Source of the DNA: an uncultured bacterium
GTDB taxonomy: Bacteria > Bacteroidota > Bacteroidia > CAILMK01
Direction: 5' to 3'
DNA length: 64,000 nt
NCBI GenBank assembly: GCA_903829945.1
Contig: CAIKRV010000011.1
Coordinates: 14,255-78,254, forward strand
Shown: piece by piece, positions 9,412-64,000 of the stretch
How positions within the stretch are numbered: the first letter of the stretch is position 1
Layout: the number at the start of each line of letters is the position of its first letter
Translations under genes and position numbers: made by a program
Notes under the pieces: model-generated
What the model was told of the DNA's origin: nothing
What the model saw: only the letters and a program-made list of their open reading frames with translations
Databases searched by the model: none

Positions 9412-12400
9412 TTAGCGTATTATAGTAACCGTTCCTTCTTTCTGACCAATTGCCTTGCCTTTTATCAACCAGTAATACACACCTGCTGCTAATGGATCTC
9501 CTTTCAATGAAGTTCCATTCCAGGATAAGATTTGTCCCGGACCTCCGTCTTGTTTATACACCAATTGACCCCATCTATTAAATATTTCCAATTCAAAATC
9601 CATGCATTTATCATTGATGCCACTCAAGGTAAATACATCATTTTTTCCATCTCCATCAGGAGTGATTACATTGGATATTTTTAAATGATCAAAGCCTAAA
9701 TCTTGTAGTTTAAAATTCGCCTTCGCGGTATCCGCACAGTTATTTCCGGGATTAGCAATTAACATGACACTATAATCTCCATCCTGAGCGTAGTAATGAT
9801 TGACGTTTCTTTGGGTTATTTTATCACTGCCATCTCCAAAGTTCCAGAGGAATTTTTTAGCGGCTGTATCCGTCTTATTTAAAAAATACACCAATCCCGT
9901 ACAGGAATCAATCGTAAAATTAAACACGGCATTATGCTTCTTTCTTGGGACAATTATTTTATTAAGCGTATCAGCGCAGGCCTTCCCTGCATTAATAACC
10001 AAAGTTACATTATACGACGTATCACTTGCATAAGTATGCTTAGGCGGATTCACTAATGAATCCTGTGTGCCATCACCGAAAAGCCACAAATATTTTGGAT
10101 TGAAACTTAATGCTTGAAATACAAAATCACGCGTACAAGGTGGATTTGTATAGGTAAAACTTGATTTCTTTTTTGGAGGAACCACTATCCCTATTTTCGA
10201 GGTATCACCTTTGCAATAATTAGGAAGAATGATGGTAAAAGTATCTTTGCCCGCACTTGGATACGTATAAGTAGGTAATAATTTTCTTATCGTATCACTG
10301 CCGAATACCCAAATTGGCGTACTGTCTTTAGGGTTAAAATCTGTTATTTTGACGGTATGCGAACAGGTATCAAAAACATATTTTACAATTGGTTTTTTTA
10401 ATGGCGGGAAAGTGACAAATTTAGAAATGGTATCACATGGTGCTTTTGGATGTATTATAAGCTTAATATTTAGTTTTCCACTGCCTAAATAAGTATAAAC
10501 AGGTAGTTTAGCTGTAATCAGTTTTCCATCAAATAACCATTGATAATCTGAATCCTTAGAAGAGACATTCGTAATTTTTATTATTTTACTGCAGGTATCA
10601 AAAGTAAAACTAAAATCGGATCGTTGCAAAGTAACATATTGATAGGAAGAATCAATACATGGAGTACCCACATCTGCTATCAGTGTAATTTTATACTTGC
10701 CTGATTGATTATAACTATGCGTTGGACTAGGCCCGCTGGCCGTATCCAAATCACCGAAATTCCATGTTAATTTTTGTGCTTTGGCAAAAGTGCCGACCGT
10801 ATCAAAATAGACCGTACGATTGCAAGTATCTTTAGTATAATTAAAAAGTGCTTTTGCTTTATAATAAGATTGAATTTGCTTAGTTACTGAATCCTTAGTA
10901 GTACATGCATATAAATTGGTTACTACTAATTTTAAATTATAAACTCCTCCAAAAGAATATTTATGTGGTGGAGGGTCCTTCAAAGTGGAAGTCGTTCCAT
11001 CACCAAAATCCCAATAAAATGACTTACCATTAGTAGTTTTATTGGTAATTTTCACCGTATAAGGAGAACATCCGCGTGTAGGAGCATCGAAATTCGCTTT
11101 TAAATTTGGAATACTCAAATCCACCTTAAACAATAAATTATTACAACCCGGATAGGTAGTTGCTGTACCATATCCATTGGTACCATTGTTTACTCTTGAC
11201 CATGCATTTTTCGTAGTAGGAAAATTAGATAAACCCCAACATCCTCCGCATACACTTTGATAAATCACTCCACGCTTATCAAATCGACTGGTTCCCCCAT
11301 CTACATGTTCCGGATCAGGATTACCTCCATAAAAAGAAGCATAAAGCATCGTATCCATATTCTTTGCAAATAAGGCCACATAAAAATCTGAGCCGTCAGT
11401 CGAATTTTGAGAGGCATCAGAAGTAATTGGAAGCTTAAGCGTCCAGCCATTATGACCACCGTAGTCAGAGCTATTCACTTTACCACCCCATCCTGAAATA
11501 TAAATTTTCCCACAATCATCCACTAAAAATGCAGAAGGAGAAATATCAACTCTGGAACTTCCGGTTCCAATGGTTGCGGAGCGAATTAATTTATCCAAAC
11601 TACTATTAAACTCTGAAATAAATTGTCCGCTCTTAGGATTATTATAGCTGGTATTAAAATTAGGAAAAGTATCAGAACTGGTTTGACCATAAAGATACAC
11701 ATTATCACTTTTATCTAACTGAACAAAATAACTTTGATCATATTTACTCGTGCCCAAATAGGTTGCATTTAGTAGTGTAGTACCATCATCCTTAAAGGAA
11801 CATACATAGGCATCAATTGTATTTTCATGCAGCTTACTGCCACTGATTGGTGGTGTTAAGCTTTTTTTATAGGTTTGTGTATCACTAAAAAAATATGGAC
11901 TATTGGTTCCGCCGGTTACAAAAATATTTCCTTTGGAATCTCTTTGCAAGGAATAAGCTGCATCAGCATTAGCACCACCAATAAGGGTACACCATGCCAT
12001 TTTGGACATATCAGAATTCAGTTTAAAAATACAAGCATCCTGTGAGCCGCCCAATACTCTTTGATAAGCATTCAGGAATTTACCGGAATCAATAAAATCC
12101 TTGCTCATCGTAGAGGAAGCCACATAAATATTCCCTTTTACATCCACAATTACCTCGCCCCTGGCTTGGTCACCGTAATTATAAAATAAGGGTGCTCTTT
12201 GAAAATAAAAATTATTGTTAAAATCCCAATATACTACCCCATTTAATCCATCAGGACCTCCACCACCTACATAGGTGCAGGCCAACATTGAATCCCCGTT
12301 TCTGGAAAGCTTACAAACATAAATATCACAGCTATCCCCATATTTTGTTTGCCAGGCATTGGTGGTTACCGGAAAATTATCCGAGCAAGTATTTCCAAAA

Positions 12401-13467
12401 ACTATTAATCTGTCCTGACTATCTACCACCATACTATTAGGTTGTTCATAGCCGTTGCCGCCTATATAAGTTGCAAATAAGAGTGAATCGCCGGTTTTAT
12501 TGTATTTTAATATCCCAATATCACCGGAATAGTATCCTTCTTCCACCAAGGTATCAAGATTGCCACCATTGAAGGTAGTATCATAAGCCTTATGCTTGCC
12601 TAACTTAGCAGGAAAACCTCTGCTATAAGTTGTACCGCCGGAATATCCGTTACCTTCCTTATCATAAGTGCCCGTAAAACCAAAATTATCCGCATAGGAG
12701 CCTGAATACGTAGCAAATATCATAGTCGGATCTACAATTAGGGGTAAATCATGGTTATAATCATCAGGAAATTCAAAGCTTACTATATCCCCTTTTATAA
12801 CATAATTACATTTTACTTCTTGTTTTTGACCATTATACTCTTGATAGGCATACGGTTTTAGTTCTTGAATTTGGCCTAACCAACACTTTACCAGCAAATC
12901 ACCTTGAGATAAGACCAAGGCATCTGCTCCTTTAATTTTATATTGAATATTATTAACGTTTTCATGCGGCCCAACCAGATAAGTGTGCTTAATGGCATCA
13001 CCTTCGCTTTCTACTTTCAGAGAGATACCTTGAAAAAGGTTGCGGTAAGTAATTCGAAAATATGGTTTTGCATGATTAACCCATCTTGATTGATCTTTGG
13101 TGTAATAATAGTTATAATACTCATAACCAACGGAATCTGCAACCAATTGCACATTACTTTGTGGGTTCACAAATTCTAAAAATACACTTTGATAATCCAC
13201 ATCATCCTTCTGAAAAGGAACATATGCATGAAATTTTTGGAGTCTGGGCGCAGACACAAAAGCATATCTGATCCAGTGATTTCCTAAAAAGACTGTGGTG
13301 CCGGGAACATCCGCCCTAAAACGAACCAATGGGTTCCATTGTCCCTTATTTTCAATAAAACGAACCCTGGCATGAAGCACTTGATTAGAGAGCACAAGCA
13401 AGAAGACAAGGCTTAATATGGTACCCTTAAGGGAATTAAAAATCTTCATACAAACGCGTTCAAACAC
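9412..13467 (-). CDS. T9SS type B (CHU_C, gliding-motility-associated) C-terminal-domain cargo protein with SBBP beta-propeller repeats and multiple PKD domains.
   Basis: The C-terminus carries the type B sorting domain (ITPDGDGKNDVFTLSGIND...FELEIFNRWGQLVYK...GVYYW). The middle holds several PKD-type WxFGDG units (FYWDFGDGTTS, WNFGDLDTASGPSPTHSY, LWLFGDGTQDS, LWNFGDGSDK). The N-terminal half has beta-propeller Gly/Tyr repeats. The signal peptide probably starts at the internal Met (MKIFNSLKGTILSLVFLLVLS, start near 13449). Confidence 0.8.
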   Translation of the reverse strand: MFERVCMKIFNSLKGTILSLVFLLVLSNQVLHARVRFIENKGQWNPLVRFRADVPGTTVFLGNHWIRYAFVSAPRLQKFHAYVPFQKDDVDYQSVFLEFVNPQSNVQLVADSVGYEYYNYYYTKDQSRWVNHAKPYFRITYRNLFQGISLKVESEGDAIKHTYLVGPHENVNNIQYKIKGADALVLSQGDLLVKCWLGQIQELKPYAYQEYNGQKQEVKCNYVIKGDIVSFEFPDDYNHDLPLIVDPTMIFATYSGSYADNFGFTGTYDKEGNGYSGGTTYSRGFPAKLGKHKAYDTTFNGGNLDTLVEEGYYSGDIGILKYNKTGDSLLFATYIGGNGYEQPNSMVVDSQDRLIVFGNTCSDNFPVTTNAWQTKYGDSCDIYVCKLSRNGDSMLACTYVGGGGPDGLNGVVYWDFNNNFYFQRAPLFYNYGDQARGEVIVDVKGNIYVASSTMSKDFIDSGKFLNAYQRVLGGSQDACIFKLNSDMSKMAWCTLIGGANADAAYSLQRDSKGNIFVTGGTNSPYFFSDTQTYKKSLTPPISGSKLHENTIDAYVCSFKDDGTTLLNATYLGTSKYDQSYFVQLDKSDNVYLYGQTSSDTFPNFNTSYNNPKSGQFISEFNSSLDKLIRSATIGTGSSRVDISPSAFLVDDCGKIYISGWGGKVNSSDYGGHNGWTLKLPITSDASQNSTDGSDFYVALFAKNMDTMLYASFYGGNPDPEHVDGGTSRFDKRGVIYQSVCGGCWGLSNFPTTKNAWSRVNNGTNGYGTATTYPGCNNLLFKVDLSIPNLKANFDAPTRGCSPYTVKITNKTTNGKSFYWDFGDGTTSTLKDPPPHKYSFGGVYNLKLVVTNLYACTTKDSVTKQIQSYYKAKALFNYTKDTCNRTVYFDTVGTFAKAQKLTWNFGDLDTASGPSPTHSYNQSGKYKITLIADVGTPCIDSSYQYVTLQRSDFSFTFDTCSKIIKITNVSSKDSDYQWLFDGKLITAKLPVYTYLGSGKLNIKLIIHPKAPCDTISKFVTFPPLKKPIVKYVFDTCSHTVKITDFNPKDSTPIWVFGSDTIRKLLPTYTYPSAGKDTFTIILPNYCKGDTSKIGIVVPPKKKSSFTYTNPPCTRDFVFQALSFNPKYLWLFGDGTQDSLVNPPKHTYASDTSYNVTLVINAGKACADTLNKIIVPRKKHNAVFNFTIDSCTGLVYFLNKTDTAAKKFLWNFGDGSDKITQRNVNHYYAQDGDYSVMLIANPGNNCADTAKANFKLQDLGFDHLKISNVITPDGDGKNDVFTLSGINDKCMDFELEIFNRWGQLVYKQDGGPGQILSWNGTSLKGDPLAAGVYYWLIKGKAIGQKEGTVTIIR

Positions 13468-27848: not shown

Positions 27849-28796
27849 ATGGATATTTCATTAGTAATTCCCTTGTATAACGAAGAAGAATCTATTCCGG
27901 AGTTATCAGAATGGATTGACAGAGTAGCCAAAGAAAATGGCTTTAGCTACGAAACTATATTCTTAGATGATGGCAGTAAGGATTCCTCCTGGGAAGTGAT
28001 AAAAAAATTAGCTTCAAATAATCCGAATGTAAAAGGAATTAGTTTTAGAAGAAATTACGGTAAGTCCGCTGCATTAAATGAAGGCTTTAGAGCCACGCAA
28101 GGCGATGTAGTAATCACTATGGATGCGGATTTACAAGACAGTCCCGATGAAATACCGGAATTATTTCAATTAATTAAAAGTGGGCAATACGATTTGGTTT
28201 CCGGTTGGAAGCAAAAAAGATATGATCCAATTTCAAAAACTTTACCGACAAAATTATTTAATTGGGCTACTCGAAAAATGAGCGGCATTTCTTTAAATGA
28301 TTTTAATTGCGGATTGAAAGCCTATAGGAAGGATGTAGTAAAAAGTATTGAAGTTTACGGTGAAATGCATCGTTATATCCCTGTAATTGCAAAGTGGGCA
28401 GGATTTACAAAAATTGGAGAAAAAGCAGTACAGCATAGAGCAAGGAAATATGGTGTTACTAAATTTGGATTAGAACGTTTTGTCAATGGTTTTTTAGACT
28501 TATTAACCATATTTTTTGTTGGAAAATTTGGCAGAAGACCGATGCATTTTTTTGGTTCATTAGGAATGTTAATGTCCATTTTTGGATTATTTTGTACCCT
28601 GTGGATTGGCGGTGCTAAATTATACCACGTTTCATTTAATATTAAGGCGGAGAAAATTACATCAGACCCTATTTTTTATTTAGCGCTGACCTGCATGATT
28701 ATAGGCACACAATTATTTTTAGCAGGATTTATTGGTGAACTCATTTCCAGAAATGGAAACGAAAGAAATTTCTACCATGTTAGAGAAAAAATTTAA
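27849..28796 (+). CDS. Glycosyltransferase family 2, polyprenyl-phosphate (dolichol-phosphate-mannose synthase-like) type with C-terminal TM helices.
   Basis: The N-terminal GT-A region (MDISLVIPLYNEEESIPE...IFLDDGSKDSS...ITMDADLQDSPDEI) carries DxD. Two C-terminal TM helices follow. The length is 315 aa. Confidence 0.8.
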   Translation: MDISLVIPLYNEEESIPELSEWIDRVAKENGFSYETIFLDDGSKDSSWEVIKKLASNNPNVKGISFRRNYGKSAALNEGFRATQGDVVITMDADLQDSPDEIPELFQLIKSGQYDLVSGWKQKRYDPISKTLPTKLFNWATRKMSGISLNDFNCGLKAYRKDVVKSIEVYGEMHRYIPVIAKWAGFTKIGEKAVQHRARKYGVTKFGLERFVNGFLDLLTIFFVGKFGRRPMHFFGSLGMLMSIFGLFCTLWIGGAKLYHVSFNIKAEKITSDPIFYLALTCMIIGTQLFLAGFIGELISRNGNERNFYHVREKI

Positions 28797-29164
28797 GCTC
28801 GCTCCTCTTGTAATTTATGGCTAAATAAACGACCTATATTTTTTGCCTTCTGTAGGGTTAATTCCGCATTCAAGCCATGAAAATTTTCATGGATCGTTTG
28901 TTCAAAAAGCATTAACCAACGTTCAAAATGCGTACTATTAATCCCTAGCGGGATATGTTTGGGATAAGGTTGACCGGTGTAACCTTGCTTGCCCAAAATA
29001 ATCATTTCCCAAAAGGAATATAAGATAGGTAAATGATGAGGTAAATCAATATGGGCTACCTCTATAAAAATCGGTCCCAATAACTCATCCTTCAAGGCCT
29101 TGGCATAAAATTCATCAATCAATGTCTTTATGTCCGCCTCGTTTTGAATATCTTTCCTTTCCAT
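28793..29164 (-). CDS. Truncated hemoglobin (2/2 Hb) family protein.
   Basis: A 123-aa protein whose proximal-His region PKHIPLGINSTHFERWLMLFEQT and the YTGQPY segment fit trHb. It is convergent with the GT2 gene and overlaps it by 4 nt. Confidence 0.5.
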   Translation of the reverse strand: MERKDIQNEADIKTLIDEFYAKALKDELLGPIFIEVAHIDLPHHLPILYSFWEMIILGKQGYTGQPYPKHIPLGINSTHFERWLMLFEQTIHENFHGLNAELTLQKAKNIGRLFSHKLQEERA

Positions 29165-29337
29165 CCTTCGAAATTACAAAAATGATAAGTAGTCAGATTA
29201 AACGTTTTTCAGTAAATTTAGTCTTAAAAAATATTGTCAAATCTTTTGAATTTCCTAAGATTTTATATTTTTGATCTAAAAAAGTCTAACCTTAAAGCAA
29301 ATAGCATTAAGACACGACCATAAAACACTTTCAAACG

Positions 29338-29917
29338 ATGATTCATCCGGATACCTATCTTAAAACAACAGCTAAAGGTTTAGGGATTTTTGCACAGCGC
29401 AATTTCAAAAAAAGGCGAGATACTATGGATTGCCGATAATATAGATGCTAAGATCCCCCTTCAAACTTATTTAGACTTAGACCCTTATCAACAATCAAAA
29501 CTAAATATTTACAGTTATCTGGATAATCAAAATAGAGTAATTGTTCCATGGGATGAAGGTAAATATGTCAATCATTCGTGCAATCCAAATTCCACGGCAC
29601 TTTTGCAATTTGACAATATTAGTATTGCTTTAAGGCCAATTCACAAAGACGAAGAAATAGTGGAAGATTACTATTCTTATTTTGGACATTTCGAAAGCTT
29701 TACGTGTAAATGCGGTGCAAAAAATTGCAGAGGGGAGGTAAAACAATTAAATTCCTTCCGACCGGCCTTGCGTTTGGATATCGCAGATATTGCCGAGCAA
29801 ATTTTAAGTCAACCGCAAACATTATTAGAAATAGACGGCGCTGAAATCAAAGAATTCAATCAACTTTTAGCTAAATTTGCTAAACAAAGAAACAGTATTT
29901 CTGTCCCTATATCATGA
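29338..29917 (+). pseudogene. SET-domain protein-lysine N-methyltransferase gene, frameshifted at an A7 tract (29407-29413).
   Basis: Frame 1 from the ATG at 29338 gives MIHPDTYLKTTAKGLGIFAQRNFKK and then stops at 29437. Frame 2 from 29390 continues ...KKGEILWIADNID...NHSCNPNS...FTCKCGAKNCRG (SET plus post-SET Cys cluster). A single A fewer in the homopolymer would restore one 192-aa ORF. Confidence 0.6.
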
Positions 29918-30342
29918 AAAATAAACACCTTGCTCCTACGCTTAAATACCTAATTCCTTTTATTTTCACTATAGTGATGGTTTTGAACGGATGTACCAAA
30001 AATGCAGGTACATCTGCACCTACCAATGTAGATTTTACTTTAGATTTAAATAGTTCCTCCAATTCCGCTTTAAGTAAAAATGGAGGCTCCATGGGGATTA
30101 ATAATATCTTGATTATCCGTTATGATAATGGATTAACCAAAAGATTTTATGCCACCCAACTGAGTTGTACCTATGCCCAATGTAATTTATCTTACCTTAG
30201 TTCTGATTATACCATTCAATGTCCTTGCCACGGGTGTCTTTTTGATGTTGTAAGCGGAACCTGTTTACAGGGGCCGGCCATTAAGCCACTTGGTATTTAT
30301 AAAACTTCTGTTAATGGGAATTCTTTAAGAATTTACGAATAA
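29914..30342 (+). CDS. Rieske-like [2Fe-2S]-fold lipoprotein with a non-canonical box I (Tyr in place of His).
   Basis: The lipobox is MVLNGCTKNAG. Box I reads CTYAQC where the consensus is CxHxGC. Box II is CPCHGC, followed by GTCLQGPAIKPL (the Rieske GPA motif). The ATG overlaps the SET stop (ATGA). Confidence 0.5.
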   Translation: MKNKHLAPTLKYLIPFIFTIVMVLNGCTKNAGTSAPTNVDFTLDLNSSSNSALSKNGGSMGINNILIIRYDNGLTKRFYATQLSCTYAQCNLSYLSSDYTIQCPCHGCLFDVVSGTCLQGPAIKPLGIYKTSVNGNSLRIYE

Positions 30343-30435: not shown

Positions 30436-31956
30436 ATGTACACGCTTAGGGAAATATTTTCTTTTATTGAGAACAAACCTCTTCTCTTTACTCAATATCT
30501 ATTTTGGATGTTTTTCGGGGTTTTGTTATTGATTTATACCCTAATTTTCAGAAATGACACCTTTAGAAGAAGATTACTTTTAATTTTTAGTATCTTTTTT
30601 TACTATAAATCCGGTGGATATTTCTTTTTACTCTTGCTACTATCTACCGTTATGGATTTTGGTTTGGGTAAATTAATTCATAGTGGAAAAACACAATGGC
30701 ATCGTAAGTTTTATGTAACCTGTAGTGTAATTTTAAACTTAGGACTATTATCCTATTTTAAGTATTATCAATTTTACTTAAATCTAATAAACGATATATT
30801 AGGGACTAATTATAAAGCCTTTAATTATTTAGCCAATTGGACGAATGGTATTTCAGGCAGTCATTTTGATATATGGACAGTAATGTTGCCGGTAGGAATT
30901 TCCTTCTATACTTTTCAATCCTTAAGCTATACCATAGATATTTACCGCAAAAAAATAGAGCCGGTCAGTAATATTTTAGATTTTGCTTTTTTTGTCACCT
31001 ATTTCCCTCAATTAGTGGCAGGACCCATTGTTCGAGCTGCAGAGTTTTTGCCTCAAATACACAAAAAATATGCACTAAGCTCTGAAGATTTTGGTAAGGC
31101 TGCTTATCTAATCATGGCAGGATTAATTAAGAAAATGGTTATTTCAGACTATATTTCCTTAAATTTTGTAGATAGAGTCTTTGAAAACCCCATATTATAT
31201 AGCGGTTTTGAAAATTTAATGGCAGTATACGGTTATACCATCCAAATTTATTGCGACTTTTCAGGATATACAGATATAGCTATCGGTTTGTCATTATTAT
31301 TAGGCTACCATTTACCGGTAAATTTTAATTCCCCATACCAATCCGTAAATATTACAGAATTCTGGAGACGTTGGCATATATCTCTATCTACTTGGCTTAA
31401 AGACTACTTATACATTCCATTAGGAGGAAATAGAAAGGGGAAAATCAGAACTTATATTAACTTATTTCTTACCATGTTGCTTGGTGGTTTATGGCATGGG
31501 GCACATATTAGATTTTTAATATGGGGAGGATTGCAAGGATTAGCATTAGCGCTTCATAAATTCTGGATGAAAATATTTCCAAGTGGCAATCAAAGGAAAG
31601 ATTCAAAATTCATATTGATGTGCAGCGGCATTTTAACCTTCAATTTTGTCGCTTTTTGCTGGATATTTTTCAGAGCGCCCAATTTGTCAATTGTAGGTCA
31701 AATACTCAGTCAAATTGGAAATAATTTTCATTTTAACCTCATTGGCAAAGTGGTTACTTCCTATAGTAATGTCTTTATTCTGATGCTTGTAGCCTATTTT
31801 ATTCACCTTTGGCCCCAATCATGGAAGTATGCCATACGTTTACGATTTACGGCCTGGCCAATTTATATCAAAGCAATAATAATCAGCATATTAGTAATTT
31901 TGATTTATCAGGCTACCTCCTCAGCTATACAGCCCTTTATTTATTTCCAATTTTAA
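30436..31956 (+). CDS. MBOAT family membrane-bound O-acyltransferase, paralog 2.
   Basis: It carries YFPQLVAGPIVRAAEF, EFWRRWHISLSTWLKDYLYIPLGGN and the C-terminal ...FIYFQF, the same architecture as 6539..7954. No adjacent AlgX-like partner. Confidence 0.85.
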   Translation: MYTLREIFSFIENKPLLFTQYLFWMFFGVLLLIYTLIFRNDTFRRRLLLIFSIFFYYKSGGYFFLLLLLSTVMDFGLGKLIHSGKTQWHRKFYVTCSVILNLGLLSYFKYYQFYLNLINDILGTNYKAFNYLANWTNGISGSHFDIWTVMLPVGISFYTFQSLSYTIDIYRKKIEPVSNILDFAFFVTYFPQLVAGPIVRAAEFLPQIHKKYALSSEDFGKAAYLIMAGLIKKMVISDYISLNFVDRVFENPILYSGFENLMAVYGYTIQIYCDFSGYTDIAIGLSLLLGYHLPVNFNSPYQSVNITEFWRRWHISLSTWLKDYLYIPLGGNRKGKIRTYINLFLTMLLGGLWHGAHIRFLIWGGLQGLALALHKFWMKIFPSGNQRKDSKFILMCSGILTFNFVAFCWIFFRAPNLSIVGQILSQIGNNFHFNLIGKVVTSYSNVFILMLVAYFIHLWPQSWKYAIRLRFTAWPIYIKAIIISILVILIYQATSSAIQPFIYFQF

Positions 31957-58170: not shown

Positions 58171-61100
58171 TTATTTTAATCGTATCAACTCTTTGGTAAT
58201 TACCTGTTCATTAATCATCATTCTTAATAAATACATTCCTTGATTTAAGGATATATCCTTTGCCTGAATTTCAATTTCATGTAAACCGGATGCCTGATTT
58301 GCCTCAACTAAAGTTCCTAAACATTTTCCATCTAAACTATAAATGGAAACTTTTACCTTGGACTGATAAGGTATTATATAACTAAGCTTTGTTTCCTCTT
58401 TAAATGGATTTGGATAAATATTTAGTTGCAGGGATTCGGAATTTAAAATTGAATTAATACCGGTAAATATTACAAGACTGGTATCAAAGCTCGATACACA
58501 ACCGTTATTATTAATACTTAAACTAATTTTATAAGTACTATCTACTGCATACGCATGCAATACATGATAAGTATTGGCAGAACTGCTGTCCCCAAAATTC
58601 CAAGTATAAGCTAGTGGGCTATAAGTAGTATCGTCTGCATTAAATAAATAAGTTCGTTTTCCGCTTAGCTTAGTAGAAAAATGCGCATTTGGAATGGGGG
58701 CAATAATAATATTCGAAGAAGTACTATCAGTACATCCGTATGAATTTTTTACGACTAAACTAACCGCATATTTTGCAGCACTTGTATAGGTATGGGAAGG
58801 CAACTTAGCAATACTTGTATTTCCATCCCCAAAATACCATTTTTGTGAGGCATAATTACTTGAGGTATCCGCAAAAGAAGTAGCAGAACCAAAACATGTT
58901 TTTCCTACAGAAATCATTGCCGTAGGCTTTGGATTTAAGACAATATTTGCAGTATTAGAATCTTTACAACCGAAATTACTGGTTTCAATAACTTTTAAAA
59001 TTCCTGTTGCTGATTTTGCATTCCAAAGAACTTGAATGGTATCCTTGGTATTGCTCCCTGAAATGCTTCCATTTAGAATTGTCCATTGATACGTAGCACC
59101 CGCATCATTTGCTGTTCCATATACTACCGAACTTCCACCACAAATTGGTGAAATAATTTTACCTATCGCAGGACTCGGACGAGTATTTACTGTTATGGTA
59201 ATAGAATCTGAATTGGAACAAGCGGTAGATGAATTGGTCTCCACCAAATAATAAGTAGTACTCACTAAAGGACTTACTTTATTAGAACTATTGCCGGAAG
59301 TATAACCTGCCGGATGGCTGGTCCAAGAATAAGAATTACCACTTACAGATACTGATCCAATGGTAGTAGAATCCCCATGACAAATTGCAACTGATGAACC
59401 TGTAATTGCTTTTGGCAATGCATTTATTTGCACCGTATCTGTTGTAGAATCAGCACAAGAATTTGAATTTGTTTCCACTAATTTTATCCATGCCTTGCCT
59501 GCACTTCCCCAGGTTATGCCTACAGTGTTAGTACCGGCACCTGTGCTCAAGGTTCCTCCGTTGAGCGACCAGGAATATTTATTTCCCGTACTTGATGCAC
59601 TATATGTTTGGGAGGCAGCAGCACAAACATTCAGCTTACCATTAATTTTTGCTTTAGGACTACTATTAATGGTCACAGAAGTAGAACCGGCAGCACTGGT
59701 ACAAGAACCAACTGTTACGGTAACTGAATATAATCCGGAATCTAATTTTGTAACACTGCTAATGCTTGGATTTTGTGTGCTGGAACTAAAACTATTTGGT
59801 CCTGTCCAACTATAGCTGCCACCTGATACTGTACTTGCGGTTAAATTTAAAGTACTATAAGGACATAAAGGCCCATTATTTGATGCAGTAGGTGCCGCCG
59901 GAGTTGCATTGACGCTTACCAGCACCGAATCAGTTTTGGAACATCCGGTAGCGATAATCGTTTCTGTCAAATAATAGGTAGTTGTAGTAGTAGGGCTCAC
60001 ACTTGGATTGCTTGTAGTATCTGAAAAACCGCTTGGTGAAGAAATCCATTTATATTTACTGCCGCTCACTTTTGCTGCTCCTATGGATACAGACTTGCCG
60101 GAGCAAATGGTGGCACCGCCGGCTACTGCGGCAGCAGGTAAGGCATTCACTGTTATTTTTACAGAATCTGTTTTGCTACAGGAGGTACTACTTACCTTTT
60201 CTGTCAAATAATAAGTTGTATTTACACTTGGGCTTACACTTGGATTTGCACTGGAAGAAGTAAATCCGGAAGGATTACTGGTCCATGAATAGGTGTTTCC
60301 GACCACAGCGCTTGCACCAATAGTAGTTGTGCTACCATTACATAAACTTTGTGGTGATCCTACCAGTGCCTTCGGCGAAGTTTTCATGGTAATTACCACA
60401 CTATCCTTTTTGGAACATCCTGTGCCAGCAATCAGCTCGGTGAGATAATAAGTTGTACTTGCTAAAACAGTAATTTTAGGATTAGAGCTTGTATCACTGA
60501 AACCACTAGGATTGGAACTCCATTTATATTTATGACCACTTAAGGTACTGGCACCTAAACTTAAAATTGTATTGCTGCAAACACTGGTATCATTTGCCAC
60601 TTTTGCCAATGGTAATGGATTCACTGTAATGGTAGTAGAATCAGAATTTGAACAACCTGTTGCGCTTATTGTTTCTGTTAATTTATAGGTTGTAGTAGTA
60701 CTTGGACTAACACTAGGATTTGCAGAAGTAGAACTATATCCTGAAGGATTACTGGTCCAACTGTAAGTATGACCTGAAATACTGGCTGACCCAATAGAAA
60801 TAGAACTTCCGGTACAAATAGCTTTTGAAGCAATGACGCCGGGAGTTGGTAAAAGATTAACTGTAATTTTTACAGAATCTTTGGCTGAGCAACCAGTGGC
60901 TGTAATGGTTTCTGTTAAAGTATAAACCGTAGTAACACTTGGGGCTACGCTCGGATTACTGCCAGTAGAACTATAACCGGATGGATTACTGCTCCAGCTA
61001 TAAGTATGGCCGGAGGTGGAAGCACCACCAATGCTGACAGAAGTTCCATTACAAATGGTACTTGCTGAAGCCACTGACGGACTTGGTAATGGATTAACAG

Positions 61101-64000
61101 TAATTTTAACAGAATCCGAATTGCTGCAACCGGTAGCGGTTATTGTTTCCGTAAGCGTATAAGTTGTAGTAGCACTAGGAGAAACACTAGGATTTGAAGA
61201 GGTAGAGGAATATCCGCTTGGATTGCTGCTCCAGCTATAGGAATGTCCTGAAGTGGAACTGGAACCTATAGATACGGAATTACCTTTACAAATTGAACTT
61301 GCACTTGCTACCCCTGGCACCGGTAATGGGTTAACAGTTACTTTCACAGAATCTTTTGCACTACAACCGGTAGCTGTAATTGTTTCCGTTAATGTGAATA
61401 CAGTAGTTGAAGTAGGACTTACTGTTGGTTTACTATTGGTAGATGTATATCCACTCGGATTACTGGTCCAACTATAGGTATGTCCGGCTACAGCACTTGC
61501 CCCAATGGTGGTAGATTTACCGCTACAGATGGAACTGGCACTACCCACACTTGGGGTAGGTGCAGGATTTACAGTAATTTTAACTGAATCTGTTTTAGTA
61601 CATCCTGTAGCGCTAATGGTTTCCGTTAATTTATATGTAGTCGTTGTTGTAGGACTTACACTAGGATTGGCGCTACTAGCACTAAATCCGGAAGGATTAC
61701 TGCTCCAACTATAGGTATGACCGGAAGTAGAAGAACCACCTATCGTAGTAGATGTACCGCTACAGATAGTTGCTGCACTCCCTACCGTGGCACTCGGTAG
61801 AGGATTGACGGTTAAACTTAAAGTTGTAGTATCGTTGGCATTATTACCATCAGTAGTACCATTGGGACTGGAAGACCAGATTTTAATCGCATAAGTACCA
61901 CTGGAAAATGCATAAGAACCTAAAGATATAGAAGCAGTAGAACCGGAGCTTAAAGACCCGGTCCAACTTTTGGCCGTTTGTGTAGTACCATTCACTGACC
62001 AGTTAATAGTTGCAGAAGTCAGAGTACTTGTGCCATAATTTTCCAAAGTTGCCGATACGGAACCCGTAGCAGCACAAATTGGTGAACCAGGTGCCGTTAT
62101 GGCACTCATACCGGCATCAGTAGCTATGGCAGGGGTAAATTCATCTGCACCGATATCCGGAGTCGTTAAACTTCTGGTTTGTCCATCAATATCATCAGTG
62201 ATACCACTAATGGGGATACCTGCATTATTAATTCCGGAATTACTAACATGTAAATCCGTAGAAGAAGTGTACCCGGGATTTACACTTTTGCTATTTGAAT
62301 TCATACTGCTACCGCTAACTAAATTACTTAGGGTTGAATAGGAAGTACCATTCCAACTTGCAAGCGTAGAACCGCTGGAATAAATATTATTATAAGAACA
62401 TGCACTCACAAAAGATGAATTATAAACATATAAGGCATCTCCGCCTCCAGAATTGATAAAATTATTATTTTTAATAATAACTCCACCTGCACTTGCAGGG
62501 TAAATATACACCGCGTAGGCCGTACCTGTATTGGTACAAGAAATATTGTTATAATATATATTATCATAGGTGGCGCTATTGAGGTTAATAGCATAGGCGG
62601 TAGCCGTACCGGAAATAGTAATAAAATTATTATAAATATTAGCACTGGAATAAGAACCACTTATTCCACTTAATGAGATTCCATTATTATTTTTAACCGC
62701 GATTTTATTTTTATAAACATTTTCCGGAATGGTATTACTTGCCTCTACAATATTAATCGCATCGCCACCGGTACCGGTTAAATTCGTAATTGTATTTCTG
62801 CTGATGGTTGCCCCCACTTGATAGGAAACTTGAATACCGCGCTTATAAGCACTATCAATGGTATTTCCATCAAAAATTAATTTTTGCGTATATTCTTCGT
62901 GGATGCCTTCGTATCCATAACGAATAAGGTTATTTCTAAATAAATTCGAAGTATCGGCGGTATTATTAAAGATCGAATAAATACATCTTCCACCATTGGT
63001 ATTAGCATAATTATTTATACCGATAATGCAATTATTTAAAAAAGAATTATTGGAGGCACCATCATGCAATTGTACCACATTATAATTTGAAGCAGGTGTA
63101 CCACTACTGCTTCTTTTGATAGTAAGCTGTTTAAAAATAACCCAATTGGTACTGTCCAAATCGAATTCATAATCACCGGTAGCAGAGTTGGTATATAAAA
63201 TCACTTTAGAACTATCTGCACTTTGACTTTGGAAAGTAACGGTATTGGTAGATGAAACACCGGAAAGGCTTCCTATACGTACCACTTCATTGTAGCTTCC
63301 ATCTCTTACATTAAATACCACCGGTCCGCAAACCCCCATATTGGTTAAATCACTAATGGCAGCGGTAAAGCTTGCATAATTCGGGCTTGTACCTCCAATA
63401 GTATATGTGCCCTTCATGCAAGGACGTGGAACTTCATTTGCTCCTATACAAGGTCGAGGCGTGGTTCGAGTTATTCCATCTATATCAGTGGTAATGGCAC
63501 TATATGCTAAACCTTTATTTCTTAATCCCGTATTTGTAGCATGTAAATCTGTAGTAGTAGTATTATAATTTGGATCAATATTCAATGAATTAGTATCCGA
63601 TACTGCTCCGGTAATATGAGCTGATAAACTCGCATATTTAACACCATTCCAATAACTAAAATAAGAACCCGAGGTATATAAATTATTAAAGTTAGAAAAT
63701 ACGTTTCCTAAAATATTATAGCCATATAATGAAAAACCTCCACCCTTATTTACAAAATTATTATTGTAAAAATGAACATATGAGCCGCTTGCATTTATAT
63801 AACATGCAGCTGAAGTGCTTGCAGAAGAAGTAACATTAATATTATTAAAAACAACATCCAAATGCCCACAAGCATTTAAGTAAATACCATCGGAATAATT
63901 AGAACTGGCCACTGTGATAAAATTATTTGCAATTAATGCATTTGAGGAAATAGTAGAAGCTCCATTCTTATAGTAAATACCATATCCGCCGGGCTTATTA
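58171..64000 (-). CDS. Giant T9SS type A cargo adhesin-like protein, longer than 1,940 aa, with its N-terminus beyond the window. It has beta-helix modules, a CARDB-like domain, twelve 79-84-aa tandem repeats, two PKD domains and a Por_Secre_tail.
   Basis: The frame is open from 64000 with no stop. The track GTG at 63912 is internal (upstream it reads ...NKPGGYGIYYKNGASTIS...). The N-terminal region holds right-handed parallel beta-helix repeats (NNNFINSGGGDALYVYNS). The C-terminal sorting tail is LQLNIYPNPFKEETKLSYIIP...GMYLLRMMINEQVITKELIRLK. Confidence 0.85.
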   Translation of the reverse strand, partial: NKPGGYGIYYKNGASTISSNALIANNFITVASSNYSDGIYLNACGHLDVVFNNINVTSSASTSAACYINASGSYVHFYNNNFVNKGGGFSLYGYNILGNVFSNFNNLYTSGSYFSYWNGVKYASLSAHITGAVSDTNSLNIDPNYNTTTTDLHATNTGLRNKGLAYSAITTDIDGITRTTPRPCIGANEVPRPCMKGTYTIGGTSPNYASFTAAISDLTNMGVCGPVVFNVRDGSYNEVVRIGSLSGVSSTNTVTFQSQSADSSKVILYTNSATGDYEFDLDSTNWVIFKQLTIKRSSSGTPASNYNVVQLHDGASNNSFLNNCIIGINNYANTNGGRCIYSIFNNTADTSNLFRNNLIRYGYEGIHEEYTQKLIFDGNTIDSAYKRGIQVSYQVGATISRNTITNLTGTGGDAINIVEASNTIPENVYKNKIAVKNNNGISLSGISGSYSSANIYNNFITISGTATAYAINLNSATYDNIYYNNISCTNTGTAYAVYIYPASAGGVIIKNNNFINSGGGDALYVYNSSFVSACSYNNIYSSGSTLASWNGTSYSTLSNLVSGSSMNSNSKSVNPGYTSSTDLHVSNSGINNAGIPISGITDDIDGQTRSLTTPDIGADEFTPAIATDAGMSAITAPGSPICAATGSVSATLENYGTSTLTSATINWSVNGTTQTAKSWTGSLSSGSTASISLGSYAFSSGTYAIKIWSSSPNGTTDGNNANDTTTLSLTVNPLPSATVGSAATICSGTSTTIGGSSTSGHTYSWSSNPSGFSASSANPSVSPTTTTTYKLTETISATGCTKTDSVKITVNPAPTPSVGSASSICSGKSTTIGASAVAGHTYSWTSNPSGYTSTNSKPTVSPTSTTVFTLTETITATGCSAKDSVKVTVNPLPVPGVASASSICKGNSVSIGSSSTSGHSYSWSSNPSGYSSTSSNPSVSPSATTTYTLTETITATGCSNSDSVKITVNPLPSPSVASASTICNGTSVSIGGASTSGHTYSWSSNPSGYSSTGSNPSVAPSVTTVYTLTETITATGCSAKDSVKITVNLLPTPGVIASKAICTGSSISIGSASISGHTYSWTSNPSGYSSTSANPSVSPSTTTTYKLTETISATGCSNSDSTTITVNPLPLAKVANDTSVCSNTILSLGASTLSGHKYKWSSNPSGFSDTSSNPKITVLASTTYYLTELIAGTGCSKKDSVVITMKTSPKALVGSPQSLCNGSTTTIGASAVVGNTYSWTSNPSGFTSSSANPSVSPSVNTTYYLTEKVSSTSCSKTDSVKITVNALPAAAVAGGATICSGKSVSIGAAKVSGSKYKWISSPSGFSDTTSNPSVSPTTTTTYYLTETIIATGCSKTDSVLVSVNATPAAPTASNNGPLCPYSTLNLTASTVSGGSYSWTGPNSFSSSTQNPSISSVTKLDSGLYSVTVTVGSCTSAAGSTSVTINSSPKAKINGKLNVCAAASQTYSASSTGNKYSWSLNGGTLSTGAGTNTVGITWGSAGKAWIKLVETNSNSCADSTTDTVQINALPKAITGSSVAICHGDSTTIGSVSVSGNSYSWTSHPAGYTSGNSSNKVSPLVSTTYYLVETNSSTACSNSDSITITVNTRPSPAIGKIISPICGGSSVVYGTANDAGATYQWTILNGSISGSNTKDTIQVLWNAKSATGILKVIETSNFGCKDSNTANIVLNPKPTAMISVGKTCFGSATSFADTSSNYASQKWYFGDGNTSIAKLPSHTYTSAAKYAVSLVVKNSYGCTDSTSSNIIIAPIPNAHFSTKLSGKRTYLFNADDTTYSPLAYTWNFGDSSSANTYHVLHAYAVDSTYKISLSINNNGCVSSFDTSLVIFTGINSILNSESLQLNIYPNPFKEETKLSYIIPYQSKVKVSIYSLDGKCLGTLVEANQASGLHEIEIQAKDISLNQGMYLLRMMINEQVITKELIRLK
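58936..61806 (-). repeat. Twelve in-frame tandem coding repeats inside the giant T9SS gene. Eight are well conserved at 237 bp each (59911..61806) and four are more divergent at 237-252 bp.
   Basis: The repeat consensus is NPLP-x-VGSA-x-ICSGxSTTIGxSSTSGHTYSWSSNPSGYSSTSSNPSVSPSxTTTYTLTETITATGCSxxDSVKITV. Phase was checked by translation: repeat 1 starts at AAT 61806 and repeat 3 at AAC 61332. Confidence 0.8.

What the first reader, a model, noticed from the sequence alone, without database searches (positions are those of the whole stretch)
29338..30342. SET-domain methyltransferase gene broken at an A7 homopolymer and overlapping, start on stop, an atypical Rieske-like lipoprotein gene
Seen directly: the N-terminal 25 codons of a bacterial SET-domain protein (MIHPDTYLKTTAKGLGIFAQRNFKK) lie in frame 1. 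The rest (…GEILWIADNID…NHSCNPNS…CKCGAKNCRG) lies in frame 2. The switch point is the A7 tract at 29407-29413, and one A fewer gives an intact 192-aa ORF. The stop of this gene overlaps the ATG of the next gene in an ATGA junction. That gene is a lipoprotein with a Rieske fold whose box I is CTYAQC instead of CxHxGC, so a Cys and a His ligand are retained only in box II (CPCHGC). Bacterial SET-domain proteins (protein-lysine N-methyltransferases) are rare, and their targets are poorly understood. Pairing one with an exported non-canonical iron-sulfur-like protein is not a described system. The homopolymer frameshift could be a sequencing error, a recent pseudogenisation, or a slippage-based on/off switch.
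Basis: partly seen in the sequence, partly recalled or inferred. Interest (0 to 1): 0.6.

Follow-up and report, generated by a model that had tools for sequence, protein, structure and literature searches.

The report
Recently frameshifted SET methyltransferase gene
A methyltransferase gene in an uncultured Bacteroidota-like bacterium was recently knocked out by one extra A in a run of six, which is ordinary gene decay; a nearly identical strain still has the intact gene, and the neighbouring Rieske-like lipoprotein belongs to a small, uncharacterised subfamily with altered metal-binding residues.

Summary
A SET-domain gene starts at 29338, changes frame at the A7 tract 29407-29413, and ends in an ATGA overlap with a Rieske-fold lipoprotein gene (29914-30342).

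The extra A is not an assembly error. Three separately assembled contigs that cover the tract all carry it, and 40 other A/T runs of 7 or more in the window lie inside intact ORFs.

It is a recent mutation. A 99.35%-identical strain (L071) has TTT AAA AAA GGC (A6) and an unbroken frame. More distant orthologues have no homopolymer at this site.

A sister lineage carries an independent TAA nonsense allele on 4 contigs. I found no signal for programmed recoding. Best reading: recent, segregating loss of function.

SET proteins of this family are common in Cytophagales and Saprospirales relatives. The SET/Rieske-like pairing, together with a divergently transcribed truncated globin, is confined to one narrow clade plus one more distant lineage.

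The Rieske-like protein keeps three of the four canonical ligands; only the box I His has become Tyr. It belongs to a subfamily in which this change always occurs together with a Ser/Ala/Gly-to-Cys change at position 108. In the SET-linked members, the Tat-like signal motif is also missing.

Interest is low to moderate.

The parts
28793..29164 (-). Truncated (bacterial-like) globin gene, 123 aa, transcribed divergently from the SET gene. It is part of the conserved globin/SET/Rieske-like triad.
   Evidence: Pfam Bac_globin at 29.2 bits against a cut-off of 21. It is 66% identical to the gene at the same position in L089. It is present upstream of SET in every locus of the window clade that reaches that far.
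29338..29412 (+). SET gene, 5' segment: codons 1-25 in frame 1 (MIHPDTYLKTTAKGLGIFAQRNFKK), including the GLG motif.
   Evidence: All family-invariant N-terminal residues are retained. The amino-acid sequence is identical to the intact allele in L071.
29407..29413 (+). A7 homopolymer, the site of the 1-nt insertion. The ancestral state is A6 (AAA AAA = Lys-Lys).
   Evidence: A7 is present in L001, L002 and L015. L071, a 99.35%-identical strain, has A6. Orthologues have AAA CGA, TTC AAA or CAA AAA at this site.
29437..29439 (+). Premature TAA stop in frame 1 created by the frameshift. The product would be 33 aa.
29414..29917 (+). SET gene, 3' segment in frame 2: codons 26-192 of the ancestral protein. 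It carries NHSC, EDYY, the post-SET motif CKCGAKNC and a C-terminal helical tail, and ends at TGA 29915-29917. Gene callers report it as a 175-aa ORF starting at TTG 29390.
   Evidence: All 41 family-invariant columns are retained.
29773..29860 (+). Mosaic, SNP-dense stretch in the SET 3' tail. Strains L016 and L017 differ from the window by 11 SNPs in 88 nt here, against about 0.7% in the neighbouring MBOAT gene. Several contigs break just upstream, at 29691-29731.
29914..30342 (+). Rieske-fold lipoprotein gene, 142 aa. It has a signal peptide with the invariant lipobox Cys27, box I C85-T-Y87-A-Q-C90 and box II C103-P-C105-H106-G-C108. Its start overlaps the SET stop (ATGA).
   Evidence: Pfam and NCBIfam. 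PDB sequence matches. AlphaFold model with pLDDT above 90 over most of residues 40-142. Foldseek to the Chlorobaculum Rieske domain and PetC3 at probability 1.0. Subfamily signature.
30436..31956 (+). MBOAT-family membrane O-acyltransferase gene. It is the downstream neighbour and is syntenic only within the window clade.

Best explanation
The SET-domain methyltransferase gene of this uncultured Bacteroidota-like bacterium (metagenome-derived) was recently inactivated by a replication-slippage insertion of one A (AAA AAA to AAA AAA A) in codons 24-25.

Translation from the native ATG now stops after 33 codons. The remaining 167 codons are still pristine because the mutation is very young. The null allele is fixed in a tight clonal group (at least 99.8% identical) sampled in several metagenomes, and a 99.35%-identical sister strain keeps the intact A6 allele.

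The gene appears dispensable in this clade, because a sister lineage carries an independent nonsense allele.

The gene sits in a clade-specific triad: a divergent truncated globin, SET, and a Rieske-fold lipoprotein. The lipoprotein gene remains intact. It belongs to a ligand-swapped subfamily (box I His to Tyr, coupled to Ser/Ala/Gly108 to Cys) of a large family of Bacteroidota Rieske lipoproteins.

In the SET-linked members the R-[RK]-x-F Tat-like motif of the parent family is gone. They are therefore probably exported unfolded through Sec and do not carry a canonical [2Fe-2S] Rieske cluster.

What is shown: the frameshift, its recency, its presence in independent assemblies, the intact sister allele, the limits of the synteny, and the residue pattern. 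What is inferred: loss of function, dispensability, and the export route and cofactor status of the lipoprotein.
For: A7 is real:
- It is identical in L001 (BUCK21-1), L002 and L015 (two GROS21-1 samples).
- All three protein alleles of this population are the 175-aa truncated call. They lie on 7 contigs from ENA, NCBI and Logan.
- 40 other A/T runs of 7 or more lie inside intact ORFs, and no other gene in the 64 kb is broken.

The mutation is recent:
- L071 is 99.35% identical over 1545 nt, has A6 and reads in one frame through residues 1-117.
- All 41 invariant family residues are still present.

The site is not a conserved slippery site: orthologues read TTC AAA CGA GGC, TTC TTC AAA GGC or TTT CAA AAA GGT.

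No sign of programmed recoding:
- There is no downstream RNA structure (z = 0.06).
- AGG is not rare (3.4 per 1000 codons).
- Restoring the frame in the RNA needs a -1 deletion or a +2 insertion. Transcriptional slippage in A/T runs gives mainly +1 insertions, and deletions are rarely linked to homopolymers (PMC5574713). Selection on slippage-prone runs is evident at about 9 nt (PMC1088944).

Independent null alleles:
- The sister lineage L018 has TAA at codon 112, and its 111-aa product is on 4 contigs.
- A second SET copy in Spirosoma soli is also a pseudogene.

The N-terminus is needed: residues 1-25 are among the most conserved in the family, so the 175-aa TTG product is unlikely to be active.

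Rieske-like protein:
- The fold is confirmed.
- Y87 and C108 co-occur in 5 of 5 variant representatives and in 0 of 121 canonical ones.
- 86 of 126 single-domain representatives carry an R-R or R-K motif that the window protein lacks.
Against: - I could not inspect any reads, so heterogeneity of tract length within a sample is untested.
- The A7 allele occurs on three slightly different downstream haplotypes. This is also compatible with recurrent switching.
- The sequence AAA-AGG-C formally allows a +1 P-site slip that would give exactly the ancestral protein, so some leaky full-length product cannot be excluded.
- The complete lack of further decay is equally expected if the gene were still expressed.
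- The Sec-export and no-cluster inference rests only on a motif count. One Tyr-variant member (P0275) still has the R-K motif.
Confidence: 0.7

Rival explanations
1. Phase variation. The A6/A7 tract is a contingency locus that reversibly switches the SET methyltransferase on and off by replication slippage. Through loss of translational coupling, it may also lower expression of the downstream lipoprotein.
For: Both tract lengths exist in very closely related genomes. A7 is found on three downstream haplotypes. A sister lineage also carries a null allele, so SET-off states recur.
Against: - A 6-7 nt tract is short for a contingency locus.
- The tract is not conserved in orthologues.
- The other null allele is a nonsense substitution, which is not reversible by slippage.
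- The A6 and A7 carriers differ by 0.65% elsewhere. The data therefore fit a single mutation on one branch.
Confidence: 0.1
2. Recoding. Full-length SET protein is still made from the A7 allele. This could happen by +1 ribosomal frameshifting at AAA-AGG-C, with tRNA-Lys re-pairing on the A run in the manner of Ty1 CUU-AGG-C. It could also happen by RNA polymerase slippage producing A6 or A9 transcripts.
For: A +1 P-site slip on the A run gives exactly ...FKKGEILW..., the conserved sequence. The 3' part shows no decay. Baranov et al. note that some 'pseudogenes' broken at A/T runs may be rescued at the mRNA level (PMC1088944).
Against: - The site is absent from all orthologues, including the 99.35% strain.
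- AGG is not a rare codon here.
- There is no stimulatory RNA structure.
- A7 is below the roughly 9-nt threshold (PMC1088944).
- The frame needs -1 or +2 at the RNA level, which are the disfavoured outcomes (PMC5574713).
Confidence: 0.1
3. An N-terminally truncated but functional 175-aa SET protein is made from the TTG at 29390, as gene callers annotate it.
For: An ORF with a TTG start exists, and all pipelines call it.
Against: - The missing residues 1-25 include invariant and near-invariant positions (H3, P4, D5, T6, T11, K13, G14, G16, F18, A19, R21, F23).
- They also include the GxG strand that aligns with the N-terminal SET region of KMT2D.
- None of the full-length family homologues starts at this position.
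Confidence: 0.05
4. Assembly or sequencing artefact. The true sequence is A6 and the gene is intact.
For: Homopolymers are classic error sites. The samples with A7 appear to come from related projects and possibly one pipeline.
Against: - A7 is identical in at least 3 samples and assemblies.
- The same 175-aa call also appears in NCBI and Logan sources.
- 40 other runs of 7 or more are in frame.
- The assembler recovered A6 in another strain.
Confidence: 0.03

Closest known systems
SET-domain (PF00856) lysine methyltransferases with a post-SET Zn motif. Best solved matches are the KMT2D, KMT2C and NSD2 catalytic domains. Bacterial examples annotated 'SET domain-containing protein-lysine N-methyltransferase' occur in Spirosoma, Larkinella and Fibrisoma.
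   Same: It has the GxG strand, the NHSC motif, the EDY catalytic-Tyr motif and the CxCx4C post-SET motif. The profile matches KMT2D at E = 2.5e-11 over residues 12-139. It is 53-75% identical to about 190-aa proteins of Cytophagales and Saprospirales relatives.
   Different: This copy is interrupted by a +1A frameshift. It is a single-domain protein of about 190 aa with a family-specific helical tail of about 55 aa. The substrate is unknown. SET enzymes can also methylate small molecules: BurB methylates methionine (PMC12542666) and is a weak hit here at E = 5e-6. 'Protein-lysine' is therefore an annotation, not a result.
[quoted passage not shown]
   Same: It is a small single-domain Rieske fold behind a lipoprotein signal peptide. 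5cxm is the best PDB sequence hit (7.6e-10), and 8hn2 and 5cxm are the top Foldseek hits. Box II CPCHG and the two disulfide-type Cys residues are conserved.
   Different: The box I His ligand is Tyr. The Ser/Ala/Gly after box II is Cys. There is no R-R or R-K Tat-like motif. H106 is itself replaced by Asp or Ser in two subfamily members.
Frameshifted genes at A/T homopolymers, both pseudogenes and those rescued by transcriptional slippage (Baranov et al. 2005, PMC1088944).
   Same: The ORF is disrupted exactly at an A run, and a single-nucleotide change in length would restore the frame.
   Different: The run is only 7 nt and is not conserved in orthologues. Rescue would need a deletion or a +2 insertion rather than the usual +1 insertion (PMC5574713). 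An intact allele exists in a sister strain.

Membership tests
SET-domain methyltransferase (PF00856) | Match to the SET profile above the curated threshold | tested here: met
   The repaired 192-aa protein scores 42.8 bits against a cut-off of 22.4. The profile hits the KMT2 and NSD SET domains in the PDB.
SET-domain methyltransferase (PF00856) | Catalytic and cofactor motifs: N-terminal GxG, NHxC, the (E/D)xY tyrosine, and post-SET CxCx4C | tested here: met
   GLG (14-16), NHSC (78-81), EDYY (109-112) and CKCGAKNC (123-130) are all present, at invariant family columns.
SET-domain methyltransferase (PF00856) | All motifs encoded in one uninterrupted reading frame (a functional gene) | tested here: not met
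   GxG is in frame 1 and the rest is in frame 2. Frame 1 stops at 29437-29439. The feature is met in the sister allele L071.
SET-domain methyltransferase (PF00856) | AdoMet-dependent methyl transfer to a defined substrate | not testable with these tools
   This needs biochemistry. BurB shows that the substrate need not be a protein lysine (PMC12542666).
Rieske [2Fe-2S] protein (PF00355) | Rieske fold | tested here: met
   Pfam 36.8 bits against a cut-off of 20.3. AlphaFold mean pLDDT 82, and above 90 over most of the mature domain. Foldseek probability 1.0 to 8hn2 and 5cxm.
Rieske [2Fe-2S] protein (PF00355) | Box I C-x-H (Cys and His ligands) | tested here: not met
   The sequence is C85-T-Y87. 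It aligns to CTH of 5cxm, 1vck and 9rk3. Tyr is invariant in the 8-member subfamily.
Rieske [2Fe-2S] protein (PF00355) | Box II C-x-x-H (Cys and His ligands) | tested here: met
   C103-P-C-H106 is present in the window protein. However, H106 is Asp in P0124 and Ser in P0168, so it is not conserved in the subfamily.
Rieske [2Fe-2S] protein (PF00355) | Export of the cofactor-loaded protein by Tat (twin-arginine-type motif) when it is extracytoplasmic | tested here: not met
   The window N-terminus MKNKHLAPTLKY has no R-R or R-K-x-F motif. 86 of 126 single-domain representatives have one. This is a motif count only; I ran no predictor.
Rieske [2Fe-2S] protein (PF00355) | Spectroscopic [2Fe-2S] signature | not testable with these tools
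   This needs UV-vis, EPR or metal analysis.
Bacterial lipoprotein | Signal peptide followed by a lipobox cysteine | tested here: met
   A hydrophobic h-region is followed by L-N-G-C27. Cys27 is invariant in both alignments. This is a pattern-level test only.
Programmed frameshift or transcriptional-slippage gene | Slippery site conserved among orthologues, plus stimulatory elements or a run of at least about 9 nt | tested here: not met
   The site is absent in all orthologues. The run is 7 nt. The RNA fold has z = 0.06. AGG is not rare.
Phase-variable contingency locus | Tract-length polymorphism within otherwise identical genomes | tested here: inconclusive
   A6 and A7 are both seen, but in genomes that differ by 0.65%. 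All genomes at 99.8% identity or more have A7. Reads were not available.

The most novel reading that the evidence does not exclude
The divergent truncated globin, the SET methyltransferase and the ligand-swapped Rieske-fold lipoprotein form a functional module in one freshwater Bacteroidota clade. The lipoprotein carries Tyr87, Cys108 and five invariant Cys residues. In this reading its domain binds a non-canonical metal centre, for example a 3Cys-1His or all-Cys site in a Rieske scaffold. Recurrent null alleles (the A6-to-A7 frameshift and the TAA nonsense) or +1 recoding at AAA-AGG-C would turn SET expression on and off at the population level.
Probability: 0.08. Interest if true: 0.6.

Novelty: new variant of a known kind. 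Interest (0 to 1): 0.3.

Why it matters
As a frameshift, this is routine. It is a clean natural example of a very young null allele, with the intact allele still segregating and an independent null allele in a sister lineage. That mainly says the SET gene is dispensable in this clade.

Three side results could seed experiments:
1. There is a widespread, highly conserved family of about 190-aa SET proteins of unknown substrate in Cytophagales and Saprospirales relatives. In many loci the gene is followed by a small EamA-like membrane protein.
2. A narrow clade has a Rieske-fold lipoprotein in that position instead, and also has a truncated globin gene upstream.
3. A Rieske subfamily has a strictly coupled change of His to Tyr and Ser to Cys, with five invariant cysteines. 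A bioinorganic chemist could test it for an altered cluster or a different metal.

None of this yet points to a new kind of system.

Tried and rejected
- The exact DNA pattern scan of JGI metagenomes for the tract with 6-8 A found nothing. The A6 strain has TTT instead of TTC just before the run. The protein-guided scan then found it.
- Rfam at gathering thresholds gave no hits over the whole window.
- The RNA fold downstream of the tract shows no structure beyond shuffled controls.
- The promoter and terminator scan gave counts no higher than shuffles and was uninformative.
- The hungry-codon idea for +1 frameshifting was weakened, because AGG makes up 11% of Arg codons.
- A literature search for SET proteins in Bacteroidetes returned nothing relevant.
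- The window's own genome was not among the GTDB representative contigs, so the organism is named only by its relatives (Cytophagales or Saprospirales-like, inferred).
- I considered explaining the dense SNPs in the SET tail by relaxed selection after the frameshift, and rejected it. Eleven SNPs in 88 nt is far above the neutral level seen at synonymous sites in MBOAT (about 2%), and the tract is mosaic among strains. It looks like recombination between alleles.
- I could not read model coordinates, so Cys-Cys distances in the Rieske-like model were not measured.

Full report
**1. The observation**

The sequence is as described.
- An ATG at 29338 opens frame 1, which reads MIHPDTYLKTTAKGLGIFAQRNFKK.
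- After the A7 tract (29407-29413) this frame runs into TAA at 29437-29439.
- Frame 2 continues GEILWIADNID...NHSCNPNS...CKCGAKNCRG to TGA 29915-29917.
- That TGA overlaps the ATG (29914) of a 142-aa ORF.
- Deleting one A gives a 192-aa protein.

Pfam assigns the repaired protein to SET (42.8 bits, cut-off 22.4). It assigns the downstream protein to Rieske (36.8 bits, cut-off 20.3). NCBIfam gives only sub-threshold Rieske-type matches for the downstream protein.

**2. The extra A is real**

The lipoprotein's exact sequence was read on 8 metagenome contigs.
- L001 (BUCK21-1) is identical to the window over 10.4 kb.
- L002 (GROS21-1) differs at 2 positions.
- L015 (another GROS21-1 sample) differs at 2 positions in 1148 nt.
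- All three carry A7.

The protein collection holds three alleles of this SET gene. All are the 175-aa truncated call, and they lie on 7 contigs from ENA, NCBI and Logan. The exact repaired 192-aa sequence is absent.

The 64-kb window is otherwise tightly packed with long ORFs. Forty A/T runs of 7 or more sit inside intact ORFs. Homopolymer error is therefore not a feature of this assembly.

**3. The mutation is recent**

A protein-guided scan of JGI metagenomes found L071 (Ga0214192_1038851). It is 99.35% identical to window 28147-29691. It reads AAT TTT AAA AAA GGC GAG (A6), with one continuous frame through residues 1-117 until the contig ends.

More distant orthologues (73-75% amino-acid identity) are intact 192-aa genes. 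At this site they read TTC AAA CGA GGC or TTC TTC AAA GGC. A still more distant orthologue reads TTT CAA AAA GGT.

The ancestor of the population therefore had TTC AAA AAA GGC, and one branch gained an A.

The window copy still carries all 41 residues that are invariant across 33 family members. These include the highly conserved N-terminal 25 residues now stranded in frame 1.

**4. Recoding or switching is not supported**

- The slippery site is not conserved in orthologues.
- There is no RNA structure downstream (z = 0.06).
- AGG is not rare.

The frame would be restored in RNA only by a 1-nt deletion or a 2-nt insertion.
- In E. coli and Buchnera, transcriptional insertions in A/T runs are mostly +1 and rise steeply with run length. 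Deletions are rarely tied to homopolymers (PMC5574713).
- Selection against slippage-prone runs becomes evident at about 9 nt (PMC1088944).

Formally, AAA-AGG-C allows a +1 P-site slip that would give the ancestral protein. I keep this as a low-probability rival.

Phase variation cannot be excluded without reads. However, 6-7 nt is short for such a locus, and the A6 and A7 carriers differ elsewhere by 0.65%.

**5. Recurrent loss**

The sister lineage L018 (Umea_bin-10179) has about 90% DNA identity to L008. It has TAA where relatives have TAC or TAT at codon 112. The resulting 111-aa product is recorded on 4 contigs from NCBI and ENA, and the intact version of that allele is not recorded.

A second SET copy in Spirosoma soli (L047) is also frameshifted.

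The downstream lipoprotein gene is intact in every case I examined. Together this points to SET being dispensable in this clade.

**6. The SET family and its neighbours**

This is not a rare protein.
- At least 150 clusters match at 53-75% identity. They include Spirosoma, Larkinella, Fibrisoma, Telluribacter, Saprospiraceae and Leptospira.
- The best solved relatives are the KMT2D, KMT2C and NSD2 SET domains.
- BurB, a SET enzyme that methylates free methionine (PMC12542666), is a weak hit. The substrate class is therefore open.

Context:
- Of 45 genome loci, only L018 has a Rieske-like gene next to SET.
- In 16 loci the overlapping downstream gene is instead a small membrane protein of about 125 aa, with a sub-threshold EamA match.
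- The arrangement globin(-)/SET/Rieske-like is present throughout the window's clade. It is also present in L089, a more distant lineage (globin 66%, SET 67%, Rieske-like 48% identity) whose outer flanks differ. The triad is therefore a real, but narrowly distributed, gene cluster.
- Canonical relatives of the lipoprotein and one other Tyr-variant member are not next to SET.

**7. The Rieske-like lipoprotein**

The model is confident (pLDDT above 90 over most of residues 40-142). Its best structural matches are the Chlorobaculum Rieske domain and the cyanobacterial lipoprotein PetC3. [quoted passage not shown]

Aligned to PetC3 and others, box I is C85-T-Y87-A-Q-C90 against CTHxGC, and box II is C103-P-C105-H106-G-C108 against CPCHG[S/A].

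A full-library profile search shows a large family: 123 clusters at 50% identity with E below 1e-30. Among 126 single-domain representatives:
- 117 have both canonical His residues.
- 86 have an N-terminal R-R or R-K-x-[FLIVM] motif ahead of the lipobox.
- Exactly five have Tyr87, and the same five are the only ones with Cys108.

In eight subfamily members C85, Y87, C90, Y94, C103, C105 and C108 are invariant, while H106 is Asp or Ser in two of them.

From my own knowledge of bc1-type Rieske proteins, position 108 corresponds to the Ser that hydrogen-bonds the cluster (bovine Ser163). I did not test this here. If it holds, the new Cys lies at the metal site.

The SET-linked members lack the R-K motif. 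From this I infer Sec export and hence no canonical, cytoplasmically assembled cluster. This remains an inference.

**8. Verdict**

The headline feature is an ordinary, very young loss-of-function frameshift that is polymorphic in a natural population. The 'system' reading is weak, because the pairing is clade-restricted and the partner gene survives loss of SET.

The ligand-swapped Rieske subfamily and the globin/SET/Rieske-like triad are modestly interesting, untested leads.

Noticed in passing
window 29914-30342; proteins P0121-P0124, P0168, P0179, P0194, P0275: A Rieske subfamily has a strictly coupled pair of changes: box I His to Tyr, and Ser/Ala/Gly108 to Cys (5 of 5 variant representatives against 0 of 121 canonical ones). 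It has five invariant Cys residues, and the box II His is itself replaced by Asp or Ser in two members. This suggests a changed or lost metal centre.
   Followed up: partly
window 28793-30342; L089 124-1646; L004-L018: A divergently transcribed truncated-globin gene always accompanies the SET/Rieske-like pair. The triad recurs in a distant lineage with different outer flanks. The roughly 60 other SET loci examined have neither the globin nor the Rieske-like gene.
   Followed up: partly
L019-L021, L023, L024, L026, L027, L029, L031, L035, L043, L045, L046, L048, L066, L069 (just downstream of the SET match): In 16 loci from Spirosomaceae, Saprospiraceae and a Methylococcales MAG, the SET gene's 3' end overlaps the start of a small membrane protein of about 125 aa with a weak EamA match (20.7 bits, below the cut-off). 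This looks like a second, more widespread SET gene pair.
   Followed up: partly
window 29773-29860; contig ends at 29691 (L071) and 29715-29731 (L017, L003, L016): There is a mosaic SNP-dense tract in the SET 3' tail: 11 SNPs in 88 nt, against about 0.7% nearby. Different strains share different parts of it, and four independent contigs break just upstream. This is probably recombination between alleles, which also fragments the assemblies.
   Followed up: partly
L018 625-1200: A sister lineage (Umea_bin-10179) has an in-frame TAA at SET codon 112, where relatives have Tyr. The 111-aa product is on 4 contigs, so this is an independent null allele.
   Followed up: yes
L047 4001-4570: The second SET paralogue in the isolate genome of Spirosoma soli KCTC 42805 is broken by stop codons and a frameshift (a pseudogene). 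The first copy (L025) is intact.
   Followed up: no
L058 and L059, 3959-5254: Verrucomicrobial MAGs carry two tandem ORFs that both match the SET profile.
   Followed up: no
L030, L032, L033, L040, L042 (adjacent to SET): A protein of about 450 aa with faint ATP-grasp-like matches (below Pfam cut-offs) sits next to SET in five Bacteroidota and Saprospiraceae loci.
   Followed up: no
window 58171-63912 (-) and 9412-13467 (-): There are two very long ORFs (1913 aa and 1351 aa) in the window. I did not examine them.
   Followed up: no
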